From contig OZ024746.1 in assembly GCA_964016885.1 (NCBI GenBank), forward strand, positions 19,468,001-19,532,000: DNA of 64,000 nucleotides, given 5' to 3'. This DNA is from Eledone cirrhosa (taxonomy: Eukaryota). The translations under genes were made by a program, and so were the position numbers. Position 1 is the stretch's first letter. Every line of letters begins with the position of its first letter. Below the pieces are notes generated by a model, which had not been told where the DNA came from, ran no database searches, and worked only from the letters and a program-made list of their open reading frames with translations. Of this stretch, positions 1 to 63,564 are shown piece after piece.

Positions 1-459
1 AGAGAGAAAGAGACATATTTTCGAAAGATAACATACGCTAAAAAAAAAAACACAACACTACTGCTATTCGCGATGTTTAAATATAAATTAAACAGTATCA
101 ATGAAAATTGTTTTAAAACAAACTTAATTTAATTTGCAACGGACCACAATTTAGTGGATTAACAATAGAGGAGATATTAAATGTGCTGTCATGCTGAAGC
201 AGTTGGGTCTTAACAATAACAAAAGTTGGTCGACGATCAATGACATCTAATTAAAAGACACTCATGGGATGAGTGTTGTAGTTCAGATAAGCTAGCAGCT
301 TGCTAGAAAAAGGGGGAATCCCTACTGATGACAATTTCGAAACCAATTCATATAGAGAGAGCAATATACACACTCATACCTACACACACCATTTAAGTTA
401 TCTTTTGCAGTCACACACACACACACGTACATATATATATATATATATATATTTATTTA

Positions 460-659
460 TTTATTTTATAGAAGGAGCTTCTACAGGACTAGTACTGTTT
501 CATTCAGATGAAATCTTCAGGAGCTTCCTGAAGATTTCATCTGAATGAAACAGTACTAGTCCTGTAGAAGCTCCTTCTATAAAATAAAAAAATGTTTACT
601 CTGCCATGTATTGAGTACCTTACTTACTGTGGTTATCCCCGACTCAACCCGGGACCAAC

Positions 660-660
<1 letters not shown>
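460..660 (+). mobile_element. Fold-back (63-bp perfect arms, 3-nt loop) hammerhead-bearing element, probable Penelope-like pseudo-LTR remnant
   Basis: 460-522 is the exact reverse complement of 526-588; flanked by (TA)n on both sides; contains an HHR and the downstream ACTC..TTGAGT motif. Confidence 0.7.
519..575 (+). ncRNA. Type I hammerhead ribozyme
   Basis: Stem I aggagcttc(519-527)/gaagctcct(567-575); core CTGAAGA 528-534; stem II ttc-atct-gaa with a U.U at its base; GAAA 547-550; stem III ACAG-tactagtc-CTGT; cleavage triplet GUA after 566. Confidence 0.8.
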
Positions 661-806: not shown

Positions 807-1126
807 GTACGTCAATACTCATCTTTTTCCATTTCTCCGAGGGTTCTTAACCCCACTATCAGGCTAAATAATTTCTTTAATTTCTTTAGTCAAAATACGG
901 CGATAGCTTACATTTCTAATAATTTCAAACCAACTCGCTGTTTCGAAAATATTCTTACTATATATATATATTTATAACTCTATTACACGCACCCTCTCTA
1001 TTGTTTATATTATGTTATCTCCTGTTCTCAATATTAGGGTATAAATATTGAGTTTTGCCATAAGTTAATCACTACCTTGACTGAATCTTAACCATCTACT
1101 ATGTAAGGGTATGTCATGTATCCTTT

Positions 1127-1193
1127 TATTTTATCTGATGAGGACGTACTGTTGAACTTAACTCAGTACCTCTGAAATATGTATAATAAAATA
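1127..1193 (+). ncRNA. Minimal type I hammerhead ribozyme
   Basis: Stem I tattttat/ataaaata; CTGATGA 1135-1141; stem II gtactg..cagtac; GAAA 1174-1177; short stem III; AUA triplet. Confidence 0.7.
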
Positions 1194-1269
1194 TAATTGA
1201 TCACAAGAATATCTATTTTGTTAATATTTTGAATTTAAAAAAAATATATATATATATATATATATATAC

Positions 1270-1570
1270 GATATATTAACAAATGGAAACTATATTTATA
1301 AAACCATATTTATTTCATGATACATATATTTCAAGGACACTAAGTCAAATTATGGTGCGCTTTCATCAGATAAAATATAATATAGATCAGTTTTATAAAT
1401 AAATATTGACATATCCTTGAAATATGTATAATGAAATAAATATGGTTTTATAAATATAGTTTCCATTTGTTAATATATCTTATTTTTACTCCAATAATTT
1501 GTTGAGTGCTTTATATCAGTTATAAAAATATTTGCTTGTTGTATCCCAACAATTTAAATAGAACTTCTAC
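1270..1570. mobile_element. Inverted-arm pseudo-LTR-like element carrying an HHR (family shared with 12847-13020 and 52950-53190)
   Basis: 1270-1337 is the near reverse complement of 1414-1479; near-identical sequence at 52950-53190; (TA)n flanks. Confidence 0.7.
1311..1377 (-). ncRNA. Minimal type I hammerhead ribozyme
   Basis: Minus strand: tattttat CTGATGA aagcgcac..gtgtcctt GAAA tatatgta TC atgaaata. Confidence 0.7.
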
Positions 1571-4044: not shown

Positions 4045-4160
4045 CTTACTCAGAGATGAAATGTACATTTCACTGATTTGAACTACTTAAGAATCTCAAA
4101 AGTATAAACAAAGTCAAACATGTGTTTGTATACTATATATATATATATATATATATATAT

Positions 4161-4230
4161 TCATTTTATTATAGAAATGACTTCTACAGACTAGAACTGT
4201 TTCATTCGTAAGACATCACCAGGAAAGTCC
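4161..4230 (-). pseudogene. Degenerate hammerhead (core CTGGTGA), homolog of the 519-575 family
   Basis: Minus strand: gactttc CTGGTGA tgtcttacgaat GAAA cag ttctagt ctg TA gaagtc; adjacent to (TA)n. Confidence 0.6.
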
Positions 4231-4348
4231 TTTAATATAATATAATTGTGTCTACGTTAGGCACAAGGCCAGCAATTACCCAGTGCATTACTGAAATGAA
4301 TATACCTATACTCTACTAATATATTGAGTACCTTTTTTTAACAGTTGT

Positions 4349-20285: not shown

Positions 20286-20479
20286 ATATATGTCTATTCA
20301 CACTCGACTTTATGTGTATATATATTTATATGAATATATATATGTCCTTATCCTCATTTGACATCCATTTTCCATTCTTGCATGGGCTAGACAATGTATA
20401 TATGTATTCAAAAAAATACATACATACACACACACATATATAATATATCCGTGTGTTATTGACAGAGATGAGAATGTGT

Positions 20480-20640
20480 AATCAATACTGAAGTAGAGTT
20501 TAAATATTCATTTATTATGCTAACTGGTGAGACTTGTTACTGTGGAGTTTCACCTGCGCATTCACCGGACCTGATGATTCTGTACATGTGCAGGTGAAAC
20601 TCCAGTGTAACAAGTCTTGTCACACAACTATAATAAATGA
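20480..20640. mobile_element. Fold-back element with back-to-back hammerhead cores (family shared with 60060 and 60495)
   Basis: Imperfect arms 20508-20560/20580-20640; CTGATGA 20571-20577, GAAA 20596, ctccagtg TA acaag; mirrored CCGGTGA core on the minus strand. Confidence 0.65.
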
Positions 20641-20679
20641 TTATATACATACATATTCTAATACATATGAAGATGTTGT

Positions 20680-21848: not shown

Positions 21849-22374
21849 AAGAAGATGTGTTATTTTTATTTTTATTTTTACTCTTCTCTTGCAAATCAAC
21901 TCACTGTAATTTATTTGTCTTGTATGAGCTTCTATTTCAATTGTGTGTGTGAGTCTGGGTAGGGAGAGATAGCTGTTGATCATCGTCATCATCATTTAAT
22001 GTCCATTTTTCCATGCTAGCATGGGTTAGACGAGTTGCCCTGTTGTGAGACAAGTCAGGTCAGATGATTGTATCTTGCTCATTTCTGGCTTGTTTTCTAT
22101 GACTGGATGCCCTTCCTAATGCCAACTACATTTACAGCGTGGACTGGATGCCTTTTATCGTGGCATCACTCCTTCATAGTCATCCTATGAACTTTTCAGC
22201 CAACTCTTGTATATAAGTAACCTTTTGGAAAACCTAAACTGGTGGTTCTTAATGTTTTTGACTTTGTGGAACTTTGAAGATCAAATAAATGATTACTGAC
22301 AAATTTACACTTCACGTGGAAAATAAAATAAAAAAAAAACAAACACTATACTTAGAACGAATATACAAAACAGT

Positions 22375-22551
22375 TAATATAAAGAGTGGTGTACTTATGC
22401 ATGGAGATGCTATGAAATAGCATATAAAACAGGGTGAAGACCCTTAAAGATAGAAAAAGTTGCAGTCAATGACAACTTCTTTTTCCATCTTTAAGGCTCT
22501 TCACCCTATTTTATAGCATTTCCATGCAAGAGCACACTACTCTTTATATTA
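22375..22551. repeat. Imperfect inverted repeat, ~80-bp arms
   Basis: taatataaagagtggtgt...gggtgaaga versus tcttcaccc...acactactctttatatta. Confidence 0.8.
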
Positions 22552-23015
22552 TCTTTATCCCCTCAGCACTTCGTAAAAGTCCAAGAGATCTTATATTGTT
22601 TTATCAATCATTCTTAAATCATATTAAGGCTTGAATTATATTTTAAAACTTCACAGCATATCTAGATATCCTTGTGGTATGGTCCACTATTTGAGAAATA
22701 TCCATCTAAAGATTGCTTTAGTTTTAATTTAAAATTGTCTTTTTGGTTGTTGTTGATACTTTAGTGTTTTATCATGGCTACAATGGACATTATATAGTCA
22801 AATGTTTAAGAAGTTCACTTCACATTCATTAGGTCCTGGGTTCAATCAACTGTGTGTCTTTTGGGTAAGTGTCATATTTACCTTAACCTCAGATTGACGC
22901 ATGTCTTGTGAGTAGAGAGAAACTGTTTGGAAGTCCATTGGATGGACTGTACCTGTAATTCAAAGGACCAGCTTTTACACACATTATGTCACACTGAATC
23001 TCCCTGAGAATTACG

Positions 23016-25044: not shown

Positions 25045-26728
25045 ATCATCATCATCATCATCACCGTTTTACGTCCGTTCTTCCACGCTAGCATGGGTTA
25101 GACGGGTTGTCCTGTTGTGGGCAGTGTCTGGTCGGCTGACCATGCCTTGCTCATACAGGAACTGATTTGGCTTGATTTCTACAGCTGGATGCCCTTCCTA
25201 ACACCAACCTCATTTACAGTGTGGGCTGGGTGCTTTTTTGCCGTGGCACCTCCATGACCATCTTGCAGTGGGGGGTGTGGGGGCATATTGTCTATATGCT
25301 TCAGCTTGTACCCATGGGAGGTTGGGGTACTCTGTATTACTGCATGACGCCAGAGGTCACGGTCGTGTGTCATCGCCTTTGAGAGGTGTAATTGGGTAAG
25401 GTCGGCTTTTATCACCTCATCCCAGGTCATCTTGGGTCTCCCCACTCCGCGGTTTCCATCGACTTCTAGTGCTCTGCACCTTTTTATGCAGCTGTCATCC
25501 TTCAAACGCATCACATGTCCATACCAACGCAACCGCCTCTCCTGCACACAGCATTTGATTCCTCTTATGCTCAGTCTCTCTCTCAATTCATTTATGCTTT
25601 GTCGTTCGCGTATATTGCTATTACACATCCATCGGAGCATGCAGGTTTCTCTCTAATCTACGTAAGCCTTCCACCTTCAGCGCCCAGGTCTCACTACCAT
25701 GCAACATCGCTGTTCGGATACATGCATCATACAGTCTGCCTTTCATTTTGAGGGAGAAGCCTTTTGCAGCTAGCAGTGGTAGTAGTTCCCTAAACTTCTT
25801 CCATCCCGTTCTTACCCTAGTTATTGTACTTTCTGAACACCCATCTCCGCTGCTAATTCGGTCACCTAGGTAGCAGAAGCTGTCTACTGTTTCTACAGAG
25901 CCCTCCTAGAGATTGGTGGTACTTGTTTCATTTGGCTGTTTGCTGCTTGCTGTCCCAGCACAGCTGCTGCATGTGAAGCCTACATTCTTAATTAAGCTTC
26001 CTGAGATCCCGCTACATCTCTTGTGTACCCATTGTTTGCATTTGGGGCAGAGAATGGAGTTCCCACCTACACTTTTCCTACATACTGAGCAAGGCCATTT
26101 CCCTGAGGGGATCTGGGTTCTGTTTTCTCGTCTACTTACAAGGACCTTAGTCTTTGTCATGTTGACTTTGAGACCCTTTCTTTCTAGTCCCTGCTTCCAA
26201 GTTTGGAATTTCTTCTTTAGTTCTACCATAGATTCAGCTATAAGTGTGAGGTCATCAGCATACAGGAGTTCCCATGGGCATCCGGTCTTAAACTCCTCCG
26301 TTATTGCCTGCAGGACTATGATGAACAGGAGGGGGCTAAGAACAGAGCCCTGGTGGACCCCAACCTGTACGCTAAATTCCTCGCTATACTCATTGCTAAT
26401 CCTAACTTTGCTGACTGCTCCCCTATACATGGCTTGTACCGCTTTCACAAGCCATTCATCTACTCCTAATTTTCTAAGAGCCCACCAGATTACAGCACGT
26501 GGAACTCTGTCAAAGTCTTTCTCAAGATCGACAAATGCCAGGTAGAGTGGCTTACTTTTAGCTAGGTACTTTTCCTGTAACTGCCTGACAAGGAAGAGGG
26601 CATCAGTGGTGCCTCTTCCTAGTACAAACCCAAATTGCATCTCGTCTAGTTTCACCCGGTCCTTAATCAACTGTGCTATAACTCTTTCTGTTACTTTCAT
26701 GACCTAGTCCATCAGCTTTATACCTCTA
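25045..26728 (-). mobile_element. 5'-truncated RTE-clade LINE (RT domain with PHD-like C4HC3 insert, C-terminus, 3' UTR, (GAT)n tail)
   Basis: ORF 25906-26700: QFGF, FVDLEK.FDRVP, GVHQGSVLSPLLF, YADD, CxxC..CxxC..HxxC..CxxC; continues after a frameshift as FCYLG..GSETW and RRLRWYGHV. Confidence 0.92.
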
Positions 26729-39333: not shown

Positions 39334-39571
39334 TAATAATAATAAAGTATATATCCCTATACGCAAAAAACGTATAGGGACACATGTATTATCCAACCAT
39401 ATGCACATGTGGTTCAATGGCAGGTTAATAAATTAACGAGCCAGAACATACCTTGATTATATATGTTCTGGCTGGTTAATTTATTAACCTGCCATTGAAC
39501 CACATGTGCATATGGTTGGATAATACATGTGTCCCTATACGTTTTTTGCGTGTAGGGATATATACTTTATT

Positions 39572-39578
<7 letters not shown>
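39334..39578. repeat. Near-perfect fold-back, 117-bp arms, 11-nt loop
   Basis: 39334-39450 is the reverse complement of 39462-39578 (two mismatches); internal hairpin tccctatacg-caaaaaa-cgtataggga. Confidence 0.9.
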
Positions 39579-47024: not shown

Positions 47025-47222
47025 AAGGTCAGCTGAAAAGTTCATAGGCTGACTATGAAGGAATGATGCTAGAGCTGTGAAATCTTGCATGAATTCATTT
47101 CAACTCATTTTATTAATAACTGCTTTGTTTCTTTCCAGGGACTATATTAGAAAATAAATCTCATTTGATCATTCCATGAGAGTATCTTGGTCAGGCTATG
47201 AATTTTTCAGCCAAACCTCGTA
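47025..47222. mobile_element. mariner-type MITE (second copy at 47679-47880)
   Basis: gctgaaaagttcataggctgac / gtcaggctatgaatttttcagc..cctcgTA; internal homology between the two copies. Confidence 0.7.
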
Positions 47223-47243
47223 TATATATATATATATATATAT

Positions 47244-47425
47244 AACTGTTTCTACTTTAGGCACAAGGCCAGCAATTACCCAGTACATTACTAGTACTTT
47301 ATTTTATCGACCCCGTAAGGATGAAAGGCAAAGTTAACCTCGGCGGGATTTGAACTCAGATCGTAAAGGGACGTAACTATGCTAGAAAGCATGGCGTCCA
47401 ACCCTCTACCGACACTGCCAATTCA
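47244..47425 (-). mobile_element. SINE family A
   Basis: Core match. Confidence 0.8.
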
Positions 47426-47439
47426 CCATATATAACGAA

Positions 47440-47622
47440 GGAAATGTGGTAAGGAACCAGGTGGACCATAACGCACCAAAGTACTCAATACTTAGGGTAG
47501 TAGAGTGGGTAATAGGAACGAGTAGGACCCTGACGGCTGAGCTCAAGCCGTTTCGACGGCTAATTCTGGACTGAATTAGTCGTCGAAACGGCTTGAGCTC
47601 AGCCGTCGGGGTCCTACTCGTT

Positions 47623-47627
<5 letters not shown>
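47440..47627 (-). mobile_element. Fold-back (55-bp arms, 6-nt loop) built on a hammerhead stem II, 5' core deleted
   Basis: 47512-47566 is the reverse complement of 47573-47627; each arm reads stemII-GAAA-cggct tgagctc agccg-TC-agggtcc; downstream actctactaccctaagtattgagtac on the minus strand. Confidence 0.65.
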
Positions 47628-47678
<51 letters not shown>

Positions 47679-47681
<3 letters not shown>

Positions 47682-47880
47682 GAGGGTTGGCTGACTATGA
47701 AGAAGTGACGCTAGAGCTGTGAAATCTTGCATGCATTAATTGCGACTCTTCTTTTTAATAACTGCATTGTTTCAGTCCAGGGACTATGTTAAAAAATAAA
47801 CCTCATTTGGTCATTCCATGAGAGTATCTTGGTCAGTCTATGACCTTTTCAGCCAATGAACGTTTCAGTCGACCCTCGTA
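47679..47880. mobile_element. mariner-type MITE
   Basis: cgagggttggctga / tcagtcgaccctcgTA. Confidence 0.7.
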
Positions 47881-52952: not shown

Positions 52953-53190
52953 GAAGTTCTATTTAAATTGTTGGGATACAACAAGCAAATATTTTTATAA
53001 CTGGTATAAAGCACTCAACAAATAATTGGAGTAAAAACGATATTAACAAATGGAAACTATATTTATAAAACCATATTTATTTCATTATACATATTTCAAG
53101 TACACCAAGTTAAATTATGGTGTGCTTTCATCAGTTAAGGGTATGTCAATATTTATTTATAAAACTGCTCTATATTATATTTTATCTGAT
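52950..53190 (-). mobile_element. Hammerhead-bearing element (1270 family) with its 5' segment inverted
   Basis: Minus strand CTGATGA aagcacacc..ggtgtactt GAAA tatgta (53088-53134); native upstream segment present in the opposite orientation at 53136-53190. Confidence 0.7.
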
Positions 53191-59545: not shown

Positions 59546-60059
59546 TAATTGTTGGAAGGTGCGTGGGTTTAGATTTGGTTGCTATTTCTAGCAGGTGAGA
59601 TAACCGCATAGAGGCTCCCAATTTTGCCAGACTTTGTAGTTGGATATTGTTAATGGTGTAACCGTAGTAAGTTATTATTTAGTCCAAAGTTAGACCTGAT
59701 TAAGCAGACGCACGATCAGTCAAAAAATGTCATTTTTTTAATTGTGGTATTTCGTGTTGCTGTTGTTGTTGCTGTCGTTGTTGCTGTTGTGACTCTTGTC
59801 ATTTCTGCCATTAAAGAAAAGAGAAAAGAATAACATACAAACAGGAGTGGCATTCACGTTAACACTCTGGAAAATTTCAACCGAAAAGATTTAACCATAT
59901 GGAAATATTTGACACTATCTTGGAAAATATTTAGGATAAACATCTATATTTAGACTCTTAAACATTAGAGAAAACACAAACACTAGTTACACACACACAC
60001 ACACACACACATAGCGTTCATACGCACACACACACACACACGCAGGGACACGCATAAAT

Positions 60060-60255
60060 ATATTCATTTTATTAAGGCTAAAGAGTGAATCTTGTTACTC
60101 TGGAGTTTCTCCTGGTTTTCGCAGTCATCAGACGAGACCCTGTGTGATGCAGGCGAAATTCCTAAGTACAAATGTCACTACTCATATAGCCTTAATAAAA
60201 TGAATATTTAAACTCTACTTCGGCATTGAGTACTCTTTTCTCTCGACCGTCAACT
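60060..60255. mobile_element. Fold-back element with a minus-strand hammerhead (60090-60137)
   Basis: Arms 60060-60080/60187-60207; minus strand tctcgt CTGATGA ctg..cagga GAAA ctccagag TA acaaga. Confidence 0.7.
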
Positions 60256-60269
60256 ACATACCGATATAT

Positions 60270-60347
<78 letters not shown>

Positions 60348-60469: not shown

Positions 60470-60652
60470 AATTATTGACGGACGTAAGAATGAACACTCA
60501 ATACCGAAGCGGAGTTTAAATATTCATTTATTATAGCTAATCCTTGATACTCTGGAGTCTCACCTACGTACTCACCAGACAAGACTGGTGATCCTGTGAG
60601 TGCGCAGGTGAAACTTTAGAGTAATAAAGGTCACTAATAGCCATAATAAATG
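60470..60652. mobile_element. Fold-back element with back-to-back degenerate hammerhead cores
   Basis: TCACCAG acaaga CTGGTGA (60572-60591); tcctgtg..cgcaggt GAAA ctttagag TA; arms 60525-60539/60638-60652. Confidence 0.65.
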
Positions 60653-61011
60653 TATATATATATATATAGAAGATGAATAAATTGGGTATAATACCAGTTT
60701 CTTACCAAATGCGAAGAAACTCGATATATTAACCCCTTAGGAAAGGGTTCAGAGCATAATTTTTTTTTAATTATATACAATGGCGATGGAACTGGGGAGG
60801 GGGGGAGGGTATACCCCCTCCAATTATATTTTCTGCCCAAACCTCCAAAACACACATCTATTTGGATATGCGCTACAATTTATGTACATGTTATGTTTAT
60901 CGCATATCGAAGTTTTCAGACCATTTTAGAGTGCAAAGAGCTAAACTAATCACTACAATTAAATTGTCCAAATTTGCCCCTCCCCACCAATTCAGAAATG
61001 CTTCCACCGCT

Positions 61012-62534: not shown

Positions 62535-62865
62535 AGTTTTTGGACTCTTTTACATCAAGAATGGTGAATCTTGATTTTCTAAAAGCAAGTAGACGGTCAA
62601 TGATTTTACATTCAAATGTTCTTCCTGTGTACCCATTACTCAGGAGTGACAGGAAATTTACGACTACATTCTCAGCAATTTTATCTCATCCGTGTTTTTA
62701 TTTTTAATTCTTTTGTTTATTTGTTTCTTAGAACGCCGTCATAGATGGGATTGGTTATTATTGCATAAATTAAAAAACACAGAGTTGATTATAACAAATT
62801 ATATTCCCACAATTGGTTGAGGATATCAACACTTTCTCGTTTATATATATATATATATATATGCG

Positions 62866-63564
62866 ATGGAAAAGTATAAGACCCTCATAGAACTGGACAT
62901 GAAAGGAATTTGCCCATTATACAGGAGCAAATCATGGAATAGCTTAGATAGGGCTAGACATAAGATAGGGAAGGCCACATCATGGTACGACAACCAGAGA
63001 TATCAGAGTGTCATGTTTGTGGACGCCACTCCTGGGGGGAAATTAGCTAACCAGTGTAGAAAGGCCCTGAGAAAGACCCACTTAAAAATAAAGGTGGTAG
63101 AAAAGCCAGGAACCACCATAAAATCCCTGATCAGCAAAACCTACCCTTTTAAGAAAACCCACTGTACCAATAGGAAATGTATCATATGTAAGGTGAACCC
63201 CCGGATAAACTGTAAAACTAGAAACGTAGTCTATAGCATAAGATGTACAGAGGGTACTTGCAGAAACATGACAACAACATACATAGGTGAGACAGCTCGT
63301 AGCATAGGTGAAAGGATAGACCAACACTGGGGGGAACTAAAAGGACGAAAAAACGGGTCAGTACTATACGAACATGCTAGACAACATGACGGTAACATAG
63401 ACAACATAGAAATTAGAATAATATCTAAACATAGGAATGACCCAGCAGATAGGCAAATCAGAGAGGCCAGTGAAATAGAAATTAGAAGACCAAAGCTAAA
63501 CAGAAAGAATGAGTGGAACAACAACAACACCCAAACAAACAACACTGACCTAAGAGAAGTATAA
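62866..63564 (+). CDS. Penelope-like retroelement ORF C-terminus: RT thumb, Cys-rich linker, GIY-YIG endonuclease (5'-truncated)
   Basis: CTNRKCIIC linker; VVYSIRC..C..YIGETARSIGERIDQH..SVLYEH..H..RQIREA.EI..PKLN GIY-YIG with CCHH; begins right after (TA)n. Confidence 0.85.
   Translation: MEKYKTLIELDMKGICPLYRSKSWNSLDRARHKIGKATSWYDNQRYQSVMFVDATPGGKLANQCRKALRKTHLKIKVVEKPGTTIKSLISKTYPFKKTHCTNRKCIICKVNPRINCKTRNVVYSIRCTEGTCRNMTTTYIGETARSIGERIDQHWGELKGRKNGSVLYEHARQHDGNIDNIEIRIISKHRNDPADRQIREASEIEIRRPKLNRKNEWNNNNTQTNNTDLREV

What the first reader, a model, noticed from the sequence alone, without database searches (positions are those of the whole stretch)
47512..47627. Palindrome grown from hammerhead stem II
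The 12-bp hairpin gacggctaattc-tggact-gaattagtcgtc is directly followed by GAAA, stem III (cggct-tgagctc-agccg) and GUC on both strands, but the CUGANGA half is missing. This is the product expected if cDNA stopped at stem II, folded back and was extended. It is the clearest single example of the self-priming model.
Basis: partly seen in the sequence, partly recalled or inferred. Interest (0 to 1): 0.7.

Follow-up and report, generated by a model that had tools for sequence, protein, structure and literature searches.

The report
Penelope-type insertion joined head to head
This 116-base mirror repeat is the meeting point of two short, cut-off copies of an abundant animal repeat that carries half of a predicted self-cutting RNA; the two copies were likely made separately from both ends of one DNA cut by a Penelope-type retrotransposon enzyme, not by one strand folding back, so it is an ordinary example of a known insertion shape.

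Summary
The palindrome is real: 55-bp arms, 2 mismatches, 6-nt centre, with GAAA, stem III and GUC on both strands. The 12-bp 'stem II' is not the parent's stem II. Family reads and contigs run through the centre in the left arm's orientation. They then continue for at least 30 more letters, ending in a strand complementary to the stem II 3' strand, so the native stem II encloses about 30 nt, not 6. No CUGANGA lies within 52-55 nt of GAAA; further upstream could not be read. The insertion is a 138-nt arm plus a 55-nt arm between TA repeats. Both outer ends are fixed family-wide, 77 nt apart. Other copies turn at many unequal positions. G47573 matches the right arm, not the left arm's continuation (A in 869 of 897 reads). 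Best reading (0.65): two cDNAs primed from both target ends at two fixed RNA sites, then joined. Fold-back at a 4-7-bp micro-hairpin stays possible (0.2). Inverted 5'-truncated copies with a one-sided tail are a published Penelope-like pattern, and this scan already reported double priming on other DNA of this genome.

The parts
47428..47434 (.). Left TA remnant of the target microsatellite, directly after a SINE-like repeat (47242-47427)
   Evidence: Sequence; many copies of the SINE-like repeat in the window
47435..47572 (-). Long arm, 138 nt; hammerhead sense is the minus strand; runs from fixed end 1 through the 6-nt centre
   Evidence: Family reads cover it throughout and diverge from 47573 (G>A in 869 of 897 X17 + reads); whole stretch in one contig (record 1)
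47435..47511 (-). 77-nt tail present on the long arm only (between fixed ends 1 and 2)
   Evidence: TA-repeat loose ends before 47445 (subfamily variant of end 1) and before 47512 (1082 reads in X17; 3069 reads in X18)
47532..47554 (-). Hammerhead 3' half in the long arm: GAAA, stem III, GUC; predicted cut between 47532 and 47531
   Evidence: the cut site is inferred from the hammerhead consensus (recalled)
47567..47572 (-). 6-nt centre; belongs to the long arm, not a native stem II loop; junction at 47572|47573
   Evidence: (tables 3, 7)
47573..47627 (+). Short arm, 55 nt; hammerhead sense is the plus strand; ends at fixed end 2 (mirror of 47512)
47585..47607 (+). Hammerhead 3' half in the short arm: GAAA, stem III with self-complementary loop region 47594-47601, GUC; predicted cut between 47607 and 47608
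   Evidence: joints of other copies begin at 47608 (tables 5 and 5c)
47625..47678 (.). Right (TA)n target microsatellite
   Evidence: Sequence
47531..47531 (+). C>T change in the long arm only (CpG site), rare in the family
   Evidence: Family C in 7484 of 7795 (X17 +) and 10661 of 10925 (X18 +)
47580..47580 (+). C>T change in the short arm only; makes the apparent G-U wobble of the 12-bp hairpin
   Evidence: Family C in 2834 of 2903 (X17 -); the mirror variant occurs in 1183 of 10004 X18 + reads from 24 starts

Best explanation
The palindrome is the head-to-head junction of two 5'-truncated copies of one abundant repeat inserted in a TA microsatellite, likely made when a Penelope-type enzyme cut the TA repeat and primed one cDNA from each DNA end, at two fixed sites 77 nt apart on the RNA. 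Shown: two arms of 138 and 55 nt; TA at both outer ends; both ends fixed across the family; junction at 47572|47573; no CUGANGA in this copy. Inferred: both cDNAs passed the uncut hammerhead site and stopped inside a long stem II, 6 nt apart. Their 3' ends were then joined, probably helped by a near-complementary stretch of up to 6 nt. One C>T change arose later in each arm. The copy is a dead fragment that cannot form a complete hammerhead. Whether the parent is a coding Penelope-like element or a non-coding passenger was not determined.
For: (1) Two fixed TA-joined ends: TA loose ends before 47512 in 1082 of 25028 laid X17 reads and 3069 of 24043 laid X18 reads, and at the 47428-47445 end in 1237 and 1416 reads, plus the reads that run over that end. 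In vitro, a Penelope enzyme cuts and extends both target strands and starts at two internal RNA sites that delimit the genomic 'tail' (PMC11167929, parts 1-2 of 4 read). (2) Parents do not hold the 12-bp hairpin: loose ends behind 47576 (X4 1 contig, X5 5 contigs) and behind 47579 (X1 34, X4 1) give 30 further letters, ending in AAATAGCCGA-like words in three of these four rows. (3) 47573 is G, the short arm's own base, where the long arm's family continuation is A (869 of 897); a plain fold-back would keep A. (4) Other copies turn at unequal positions with 0-3 shared letters: 10 distinct head-to-head joints among the 15 of 19 rows shown, for example 47475/47569, 47503/47572 and 47459/47510; some arms start at the predicted cut site 47608. 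(5) In three older copies of another family in this window the short-tail arm carries CTGATGA (CTGGTGA in one copy) that the long-tail arm appears to lack, which fold-back from the long arm cannot give (read by eye, arms only about 70-80% alike).
Against: In this copy the short arm lies wholly within the mirror of the long arm and shares its subfamily letters, so copying from the first strand is geometrically possible. In one parental variant (loose end behind 47579) 5-6 of 7 letters beside the centre are self-complementary, enough for weak fold-back. In 8 of the 10 joints one arm ends at 47566-47572, so this region may be a preferred turning place (the reference ended at 47572, so this is not controlled). 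Three X1 contigs cross the centre in the same register with 13-16 differences (records 6-8). The outer ends of the other copies' arms were not seen. The parental CUGANGA and any ORF were not seen. The in vitro work used a different clade and did not show inverted products in the parts read.
Confidence: 0.65

Rival explanations
1. Self-priming. One cDNA primed at the left TA end stopped just past the centre, folded back on a 4-7-bp local hairpin, and copied itself. The second strand was then cut or captured at fixed end 2 by the endonuclease.
For: The short arm is contained in the long arm and has the same subfamily letters. One parental variant has 5-6 of 7 self-complementary letters at the turn. 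Arm ends may cluster at 47566-47572. Self-priming was proposed for palindromic Penelope junctions (PMC3846280, passages), and endonuclease resolution for the tail (PMC8557442, passages).
Against: The turn is not at the native stem II. G47573 needs an extra change. The other parental variant offers only 4 of 7 matches. Unequal joints in other copies have 0-3 shared letters. PMC3846280 itself notes that head-to-head products would need an antisense template under its RNA self-priming model. The first strand ending at 47572 leaves its last 11 letters unpaired in the predicted DNA fold.
Confidence: 0.2
2. A single long-arm insertion was later turned into a palindrome at the DNA level, by break repair or replication template switching.
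For: The arms are 96% complementary and the region is rich in microsatellites.
Against: The short arm stops at the family-wide end 2, which a later DNA event has little reason to hit. The same long/short layout occurs in other families in the window.
Confidence: 0.05
3. Two independent insertions, the second landing in opposite orientation at the truncated 5' edge of the first.
For: The family is very abundant (about 21,000 contigs laid from one run), and neighbouring copies separated by short TA runs exist (joint 47428/47512; 5c rows).
Against: There is no TA at the junction, although the family's ends join TA. Both arms carry the same subfamily letters at 47519, 47520, 47525, 47535, 47538 and 47563, some of which are minority states.
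Confidence: 0.05
4. Assembly or library fold-back artefact.
For: No listed read or contig reproduced this exact junction (only the longest pieces are shown).
Against: Each arm has its own rare C>T change, the arms are unequal, both end at family-wide sites, and head-to-head joints of the family occur in both contigs and raw reads.
Confidence: 0.03

Closest known systems
Endonuclease-bearing Penelope-like elements, (TA)n-targeting Hydra and Naiad clades (Craig et al. 2021, PMC8557442; passages, supplement searches and part 2 of 59 of the supplement seen)
   Same: An inverted 5'-truncated copy next to the main copy, a tail at one end only, insertion in (TA)n, and a type I hammerhead near the 3' end.
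   Different: The tail is 77 nt against the published 30-40. The inferred stem II encloses about 30 nt, against loops of 3-10 nt in the Hydra rows of File S2. Stem III is 6 bp with a 7-nt loop. No ORF is linked here. Three of the seven 8-10-nt window motifs searched had no hit in the supplement or only one, and no displayed hit showed this family (not all hits were displayed).
PAc Poseidon element of Anolis, in vitro (Frangieh et al. 2024, PMC11167929; parts 1-2 of 4 read)
   Same: Two fixed initiation sites bounding a tail, an AT-rich target, both target strands extended, and uncut RNA as the main template, which fits cDNA passing the cut site here.
   Different: Another clade. Its hammerhead overlaps the ORF start. 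Head-to-head products are not described in the parts read.
Animal non-LTR retrozymes (Cervera and de la Pena 2020, PMC7229834, passages; Li et al. 2026, bioRxiv 10.64898/2026.07.22.740005, part 1 of 5)
   Same: Abundant non-coding repeats with type I hammerheads, proposed to be moved by Penelope-like elements.
   Different: No tandem monomer array at this locus; unit length, RNA and circularity unknown.
Palindromic junctions of Adineta vaga Penelope elements (PMC3846280, passages)
   Same: Head-to-head inverted repeats with a palindrome at the junction and a one-sided tail; self-priming was proposed for them.
   Different: Here the parent could be read across the turn, and it does not hold the hairpin that self-priming needs.
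Penelope hammerheads with palindromic helix III (Cervera and de la Pena 2014, PMC4209133, passages)
   Same: Self-complementary helix III loop region (47594-47601).
   Different: Helix III here is a stable 6-bp stem, not 1-2 bp, and helix II is much longer than their 7-8 bp.

Membership tests
Type I hammerhead ribozyme | GAAA core followed by helix III and an NUH triplet | tested here: met
   GAA-A, 6-bp helix, GUC on both arms
Type I hammerhead ribozyme | CUGANGA core 5' of helix II, in this copy | tested here: not met
   Absent on both strands; no hammerhead among 43 Rfam matches with E up to 10, and none at the gathering score in the window
Type I hammerhead ribozyme | CUGANGA core in parental copies | tested here: inconclusive
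   Absent in the 52-55 nt above GAAA; loose ends stop at about the inferred 5' strand of helix II, just short of where the core is expected
Type I hammerhead ribozyme | Helix II closed by G10.1-C11.1, and helix I | tested here: inconclusive
   About 8 bp of complementarity seen by eye between loose-end letters and 47574-47582; the closing pair and the 5' strand of helix I were not reached
Type I hammerhead ribozyme | Self-cleavage after GUC | not testable with these tools
   Indirect only: joints of at least 2 distinct contigs begin at 47608. The single arm is predicted to fold an alternative hairpin with GAAA in its loop
Penelope-like element insertion | Inverted 5'-truncated partner copy | tested here: met
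Penelope-like element insertion | Tail at one end only (two fixed 3' ends) | tested here: met
   Ends at about 47435 and 47512; 77 nt, longer than the published 30-40
Penelope-like element insertion | Insertion in microsatellite or AT-rich DNA | tested here: met
   TA at both ends here and in family loose ends
Penelope-like element insertion | Linked RT and GIY-YIG ORF between pLTRs | not testable with these tools
   No genome held; four collection scans empty; none in this copy
Non-LTR retrozyme | Tandem 150-450-bp monomers, each with a complete hammerhead | tested here: not met
   Single two-arm fragment, no other copy in the window; the family elsewhere could not be read
Non-LTR retrozyme | Linear and circular RNA monomers | not testable with these tools
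   No RNA run was available to lay
Fold-back (self-primed) palindrome | Centre equals the loop of a hairpin present in the parent | tested here: not met
   The parent's stem II encloses about 30 nt; only 4-6 of 7 letters beside the centre are complementary
microRNA precursor or MITE | Rfam family at the gathering score, or the palindrome copied as one unit | tested here: not met
   Only sub-threshold hairpin matches; family joints fall at many places

The most novel reading that the evidence does not exclude
This family carries an active type I hammerhead with an oversized stem II of more than 50 nt, and the reverse transcriptase tends to stall at the base of its distal hairpin (47566-47572). 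The thousands of head-to-head junctions would then form a genome-wide map of stall and cut sites, showing that Penelope-type inverted ends come from priming at both target ends and overturning the published self-priming proposal.
Probability: 0.25. Interest if true: 0.55.

Novelty: new member of a known kind. Interest (0 to 1): 0.3.

Why it matters
How Penelope-like elements make their inverted, tailed insertions is called open in PMC8557442, and self-priming is a published proposal (PMC3846280). This locus looked like a proof of self-priming. Reading the parent shows that the hairpin is mostly a by-product of the inversion, a caution for anyone who calls a palindrome centre a 'stem II'. The locus itself is a dead 193-nt fragment. 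Its value is as one more junction in a genome-wide test that the scan has already proposed.

Tried and rejected
Own-genome search: no genome held. BLAST in the window: no second copy of the arms. Pattern scans gave 0 loci each in metagenome contigs, prokaryote genome contigs and viral contigs. Earlier-findings look-ups near the locus, by sequence and by relatives were empty. Rfam: nothing at the gathering score; sub-threshold miRNA-like hits reflect the hairpin and TA runs. Sequencing runs: no RNA holder listed. Of the 19 runs listed, 8 were laid. X4, X6 and X7 (other organism labels) gave only 3, 5 and 41 records, so nothing is claimed about other species; small-share rows were not used. Read-end piles at 47565, 47574 and 47577 were rejected as biology, because they fall on AATT words in RAD libraries (my inference of a restriction cut). 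Joints at 47518/47613-47615 were rejected as products of the mirrored reference and of subfamily divergence after 47518. The G-U wobble in the 12-bp hairpin was rejected as evidence of strand or structure, since the family has C at 47580. A permuted hammerhead (CUGANGA downstream of GAAA) was considered; none is present in the long arm. Same-register contigs across the centre (records 6-8) were treated as close to neutral, since a few are expected among many junctions. Literature: 'octopus' with 'hammerhead ribozyme' gave 5 papers, 4 listed. 'Penelope', 'twin priming', 'inverted' and 'retrotransposon' together gave 2 papers, seen as listings only, neither titled on this mechanism. These searches, are the only basis for saying that I found no paper on this family. 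bioRxiv supplements were not seen and may list it.

Full report
Observation. The window is AT-rich animal-type DNA full of microsatellites and SINE-like repeats; the repeat at 47242-47427 resembles octopus SINEs (recalled, not from a call). At 47512-47627 lies an inverted repeat with 55-bp arms, two mismatches and a 6-nt centre. It is far beyond chance: score 44 against a maximum of 11 in 100 shuffles. Each arm holds GAA-A, a 6-bp stem III around a 7-nt loop, and GUC, with no linked CTGANGA. Rfam has no hammerhead match.

Finding the parent. No genome is held, the window has no second copy, and four collection scans were empty. Public runs hold the stretch, and I laid 8 of the 19 listed. The family is very abundant in organism A: 21208 and 20427 contigs in two runs of one sample, and 25028 and 24043 RAD reads in two other samples. 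These are not copy numbers.

Outer ends. Family reads cover 47428-47572 continuously, so the left arm is 77 nt longer than the palindrome. TA-repeat loose ends appear at two places: the far left end (about 47435; a subfamily variant shows as loose ends before 47445) and before 47512 (1082 reads in X17, 3069 in X18). The right arm ends at the exact mirror of 47512 and runs into 54 nt of TA. The insertion is thus TA, long arm, short arm, TA, with each outer end at one of two fixed family sites. Craig et al. describe this layout for Penelope-like elements: an inverted 5'-truncated copy, a 30-40-bp tail at one end, and (TA)n targets (PMC8557442, passages). Frangieh et al. showed in vitro that a Penelope enzyme cuts and extends both target strands, starts at two internal RNA sites that bound the tail, and uses mainly uncut RNA (PMC11167929, parts 1-2 of 4).

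The centre. Family sequences match the window through the 6-nt centre in the left arm's orientation. They differ at 47573 (A in 869 of 897 X17 + reads) and then run on. Loose ends behind 47576 (X4 1 contig, X5 5) and behind 47579 (X1 34, X4 1) give 30 letters each. Three of these four rows end in AAATAGCCGA-like words; the X1 consensus differs there. By eye, these words are the antisense of a strand complementary over about 8 bp to the 3' strand of stem II. The native stem II therefore likely encloses 30-32 nt, with a further small hairpin inside. A third variant (loose end before 47582; 1312 X17 reads) also shows 30 letters without a core. No CUGANGA occurs in the 52-55 nt above GAAA. It would be expected just beyond what the tool prints, so the family's hammerhead status is likely but unproven. 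Its 'ggaccct' is the mirror of the sequence after the cut site, and the T is rare in the family (C in 10661 of 10925). The apparent G-U pair comes from a second rare C>T at 47580 (C in 2834 of 2903).

Fold-back or two cDNAs. Fold-back at the native stem II would leave a centre of about 30 nt, which is excluded. Fold-back at a local hairpin remains possible: beside the centre one parental variant matches the needed letters at 5-6 of 7 places, the other at 4 of 7. But that product would keep A at 47573, and the window has G, the short arm's own base. The first strand ending at 47572 has no paired 3' end in the predicted DNA fold. Other copies turn at unequal places with 0-3 shared letters. One search shows 15 of 19 joints. 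After dropping one tail-to-tail row and three same-strand skips, and merging one duplicate, 10 head-to-head joints remain; four of them have an uncertain first coordinate near 47518-47519 because subfamilies diverge there. In one search (15 of 60 joints shown, plus table 5c) at least two distinct contigs start the second arm at 47608, the predicted cut site. In three older palindromes of another, Hydra-like family in this window (20443-20650, 60050-60270, 60470-60668), the short-tail arm carries CTGATGA (CTGGTGA in the third) that the long-tail arm appears to lack. Fold-back from the long arm cannot give that, though these arms are only about 70-80% alike and the three may descend from one unit.

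Results against this reading. Here the short arm lies wholly inside the long arm's mirror and shares its subfamily letters. In 8 of the 10 joints one arm ends at 47566-47572, which may mean a preferred stop or turn, or may be an edge effect of the reference and of the minimum side length. Three contigs cross the centre in the same register (records 6-8). The far ends of the other copies' arms were not seen. This exact junction was not seen in the listed reads. Self-priming has been proposed in print for such junctions (PMC3846280, passages).

Mechanism. Likely: a Penelope-type endonuclease cut a TA repeat; each DNA end primed cDNA on the same RNA or a sister RNA, at site 1 and site 2; both cDNAs passed the uncut GUC site and stopped in the structured stem II, 6 nt apart; the ends were joined and repaired; two C>T changes followed. 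The anatomy is shown. The enzyme, the RNA and the order of steps are inferred. I put this at 0.65, local fold-back with a fixed second cut at 0.2, and the other readings at 0.05 or less each. My first guess favoured fold-back at 60%. Earlier scan notes supplied the double-priming wording. They are unchecked AI notes and are not counted as evidence; the shift rests.

Known and new. It works like a Penelope-like insertion and meets three structural features. Membership of a clade, or of the retrozymes (PMC7229834, passages; bioRxiv 10.64898/2026.07.22.740005, part 1 of 5), could not be tested. The self-complementary stem III loop is precedented (PMC4209133, passages). The 77-nt tail and long stem II exceed the Hydra rows of File S2. 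I found no paper on this family in four searches; bioRxiv supplements were not seen. Verdict: real, a new member of a known kind, and not the proof of self-priming it appeared to be. Interest 0.3.

Noticed in passing
window 20443-20650 (+), 60050-60270 (-), 60470-60668 (+): Three old head-to-head copies of a Hydra-like hammerhead family. Each has a long-tail and a short-tail arm; the long arms appear to start at the base of stem II and the short arms carry CTGATGA or CTGGTGA.
   Followed up: partly
window 455-660: 68-bp-arm palindrome with a 3-nt centre, a CTGAAGA...GAAA motif in both arms, TA at the left end and about 65 extra nt before TA at the right; a relative lies at 4144-4231.
   Followed up: partly
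window 39334-39578: 117-bp-arm palindrome with an 11-nt centre, ending in TTA/TA repeats on the right; no other copy in the displayed BLAST rows.
   Followed up: no
window 1124-1380 and 53040-53190: AT-rich CTGATGA...GAAA motifs with long stem II; two related copies face each other tail to tail across a TA run.
   Followed up: no
window 62821-63564 (+): 247-aa open frame with cysteine pairs and a YIGET motif, like the end of a Penelope-type ORF (recalled resemblance); no Pfam match at E 0.01.
   Followed up: partly
window 25179-26703 (-): Broken non-LTR retrotransposon: RVT_1 (E 1.4e-27) followed by a PHD-like finger.
   Followed up: partly
window 47047-47214 and 47689-47856: 168-bp direct repeat, 88% alike, flanking the SINE-like repeat and the palindrome; its ends recall a small TA-inserting DNA transposon (recalled).
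   Followed up: no
window 47548-47563 (-) and mirror 47578-47593 (+): The stem II 3' strand is also complementary to the stem III 5' strand, giving a predicted alternative 6-bp hairpin with GAAA in its loop; it could hold the ribozyme inactive.
   Followed up: no
window 47494-47511 (-): The sense sequence just downstream of fixed end 2 is rich in A and C, loosely like the AC-rich initiation loop reported for PAc (PMC11167929).
   Followed up: no
window 22372-22554: Imperfect palindrome of about 180 nt with a 12-nt indel between the arms, not TA-flanked.
   Followed up: no
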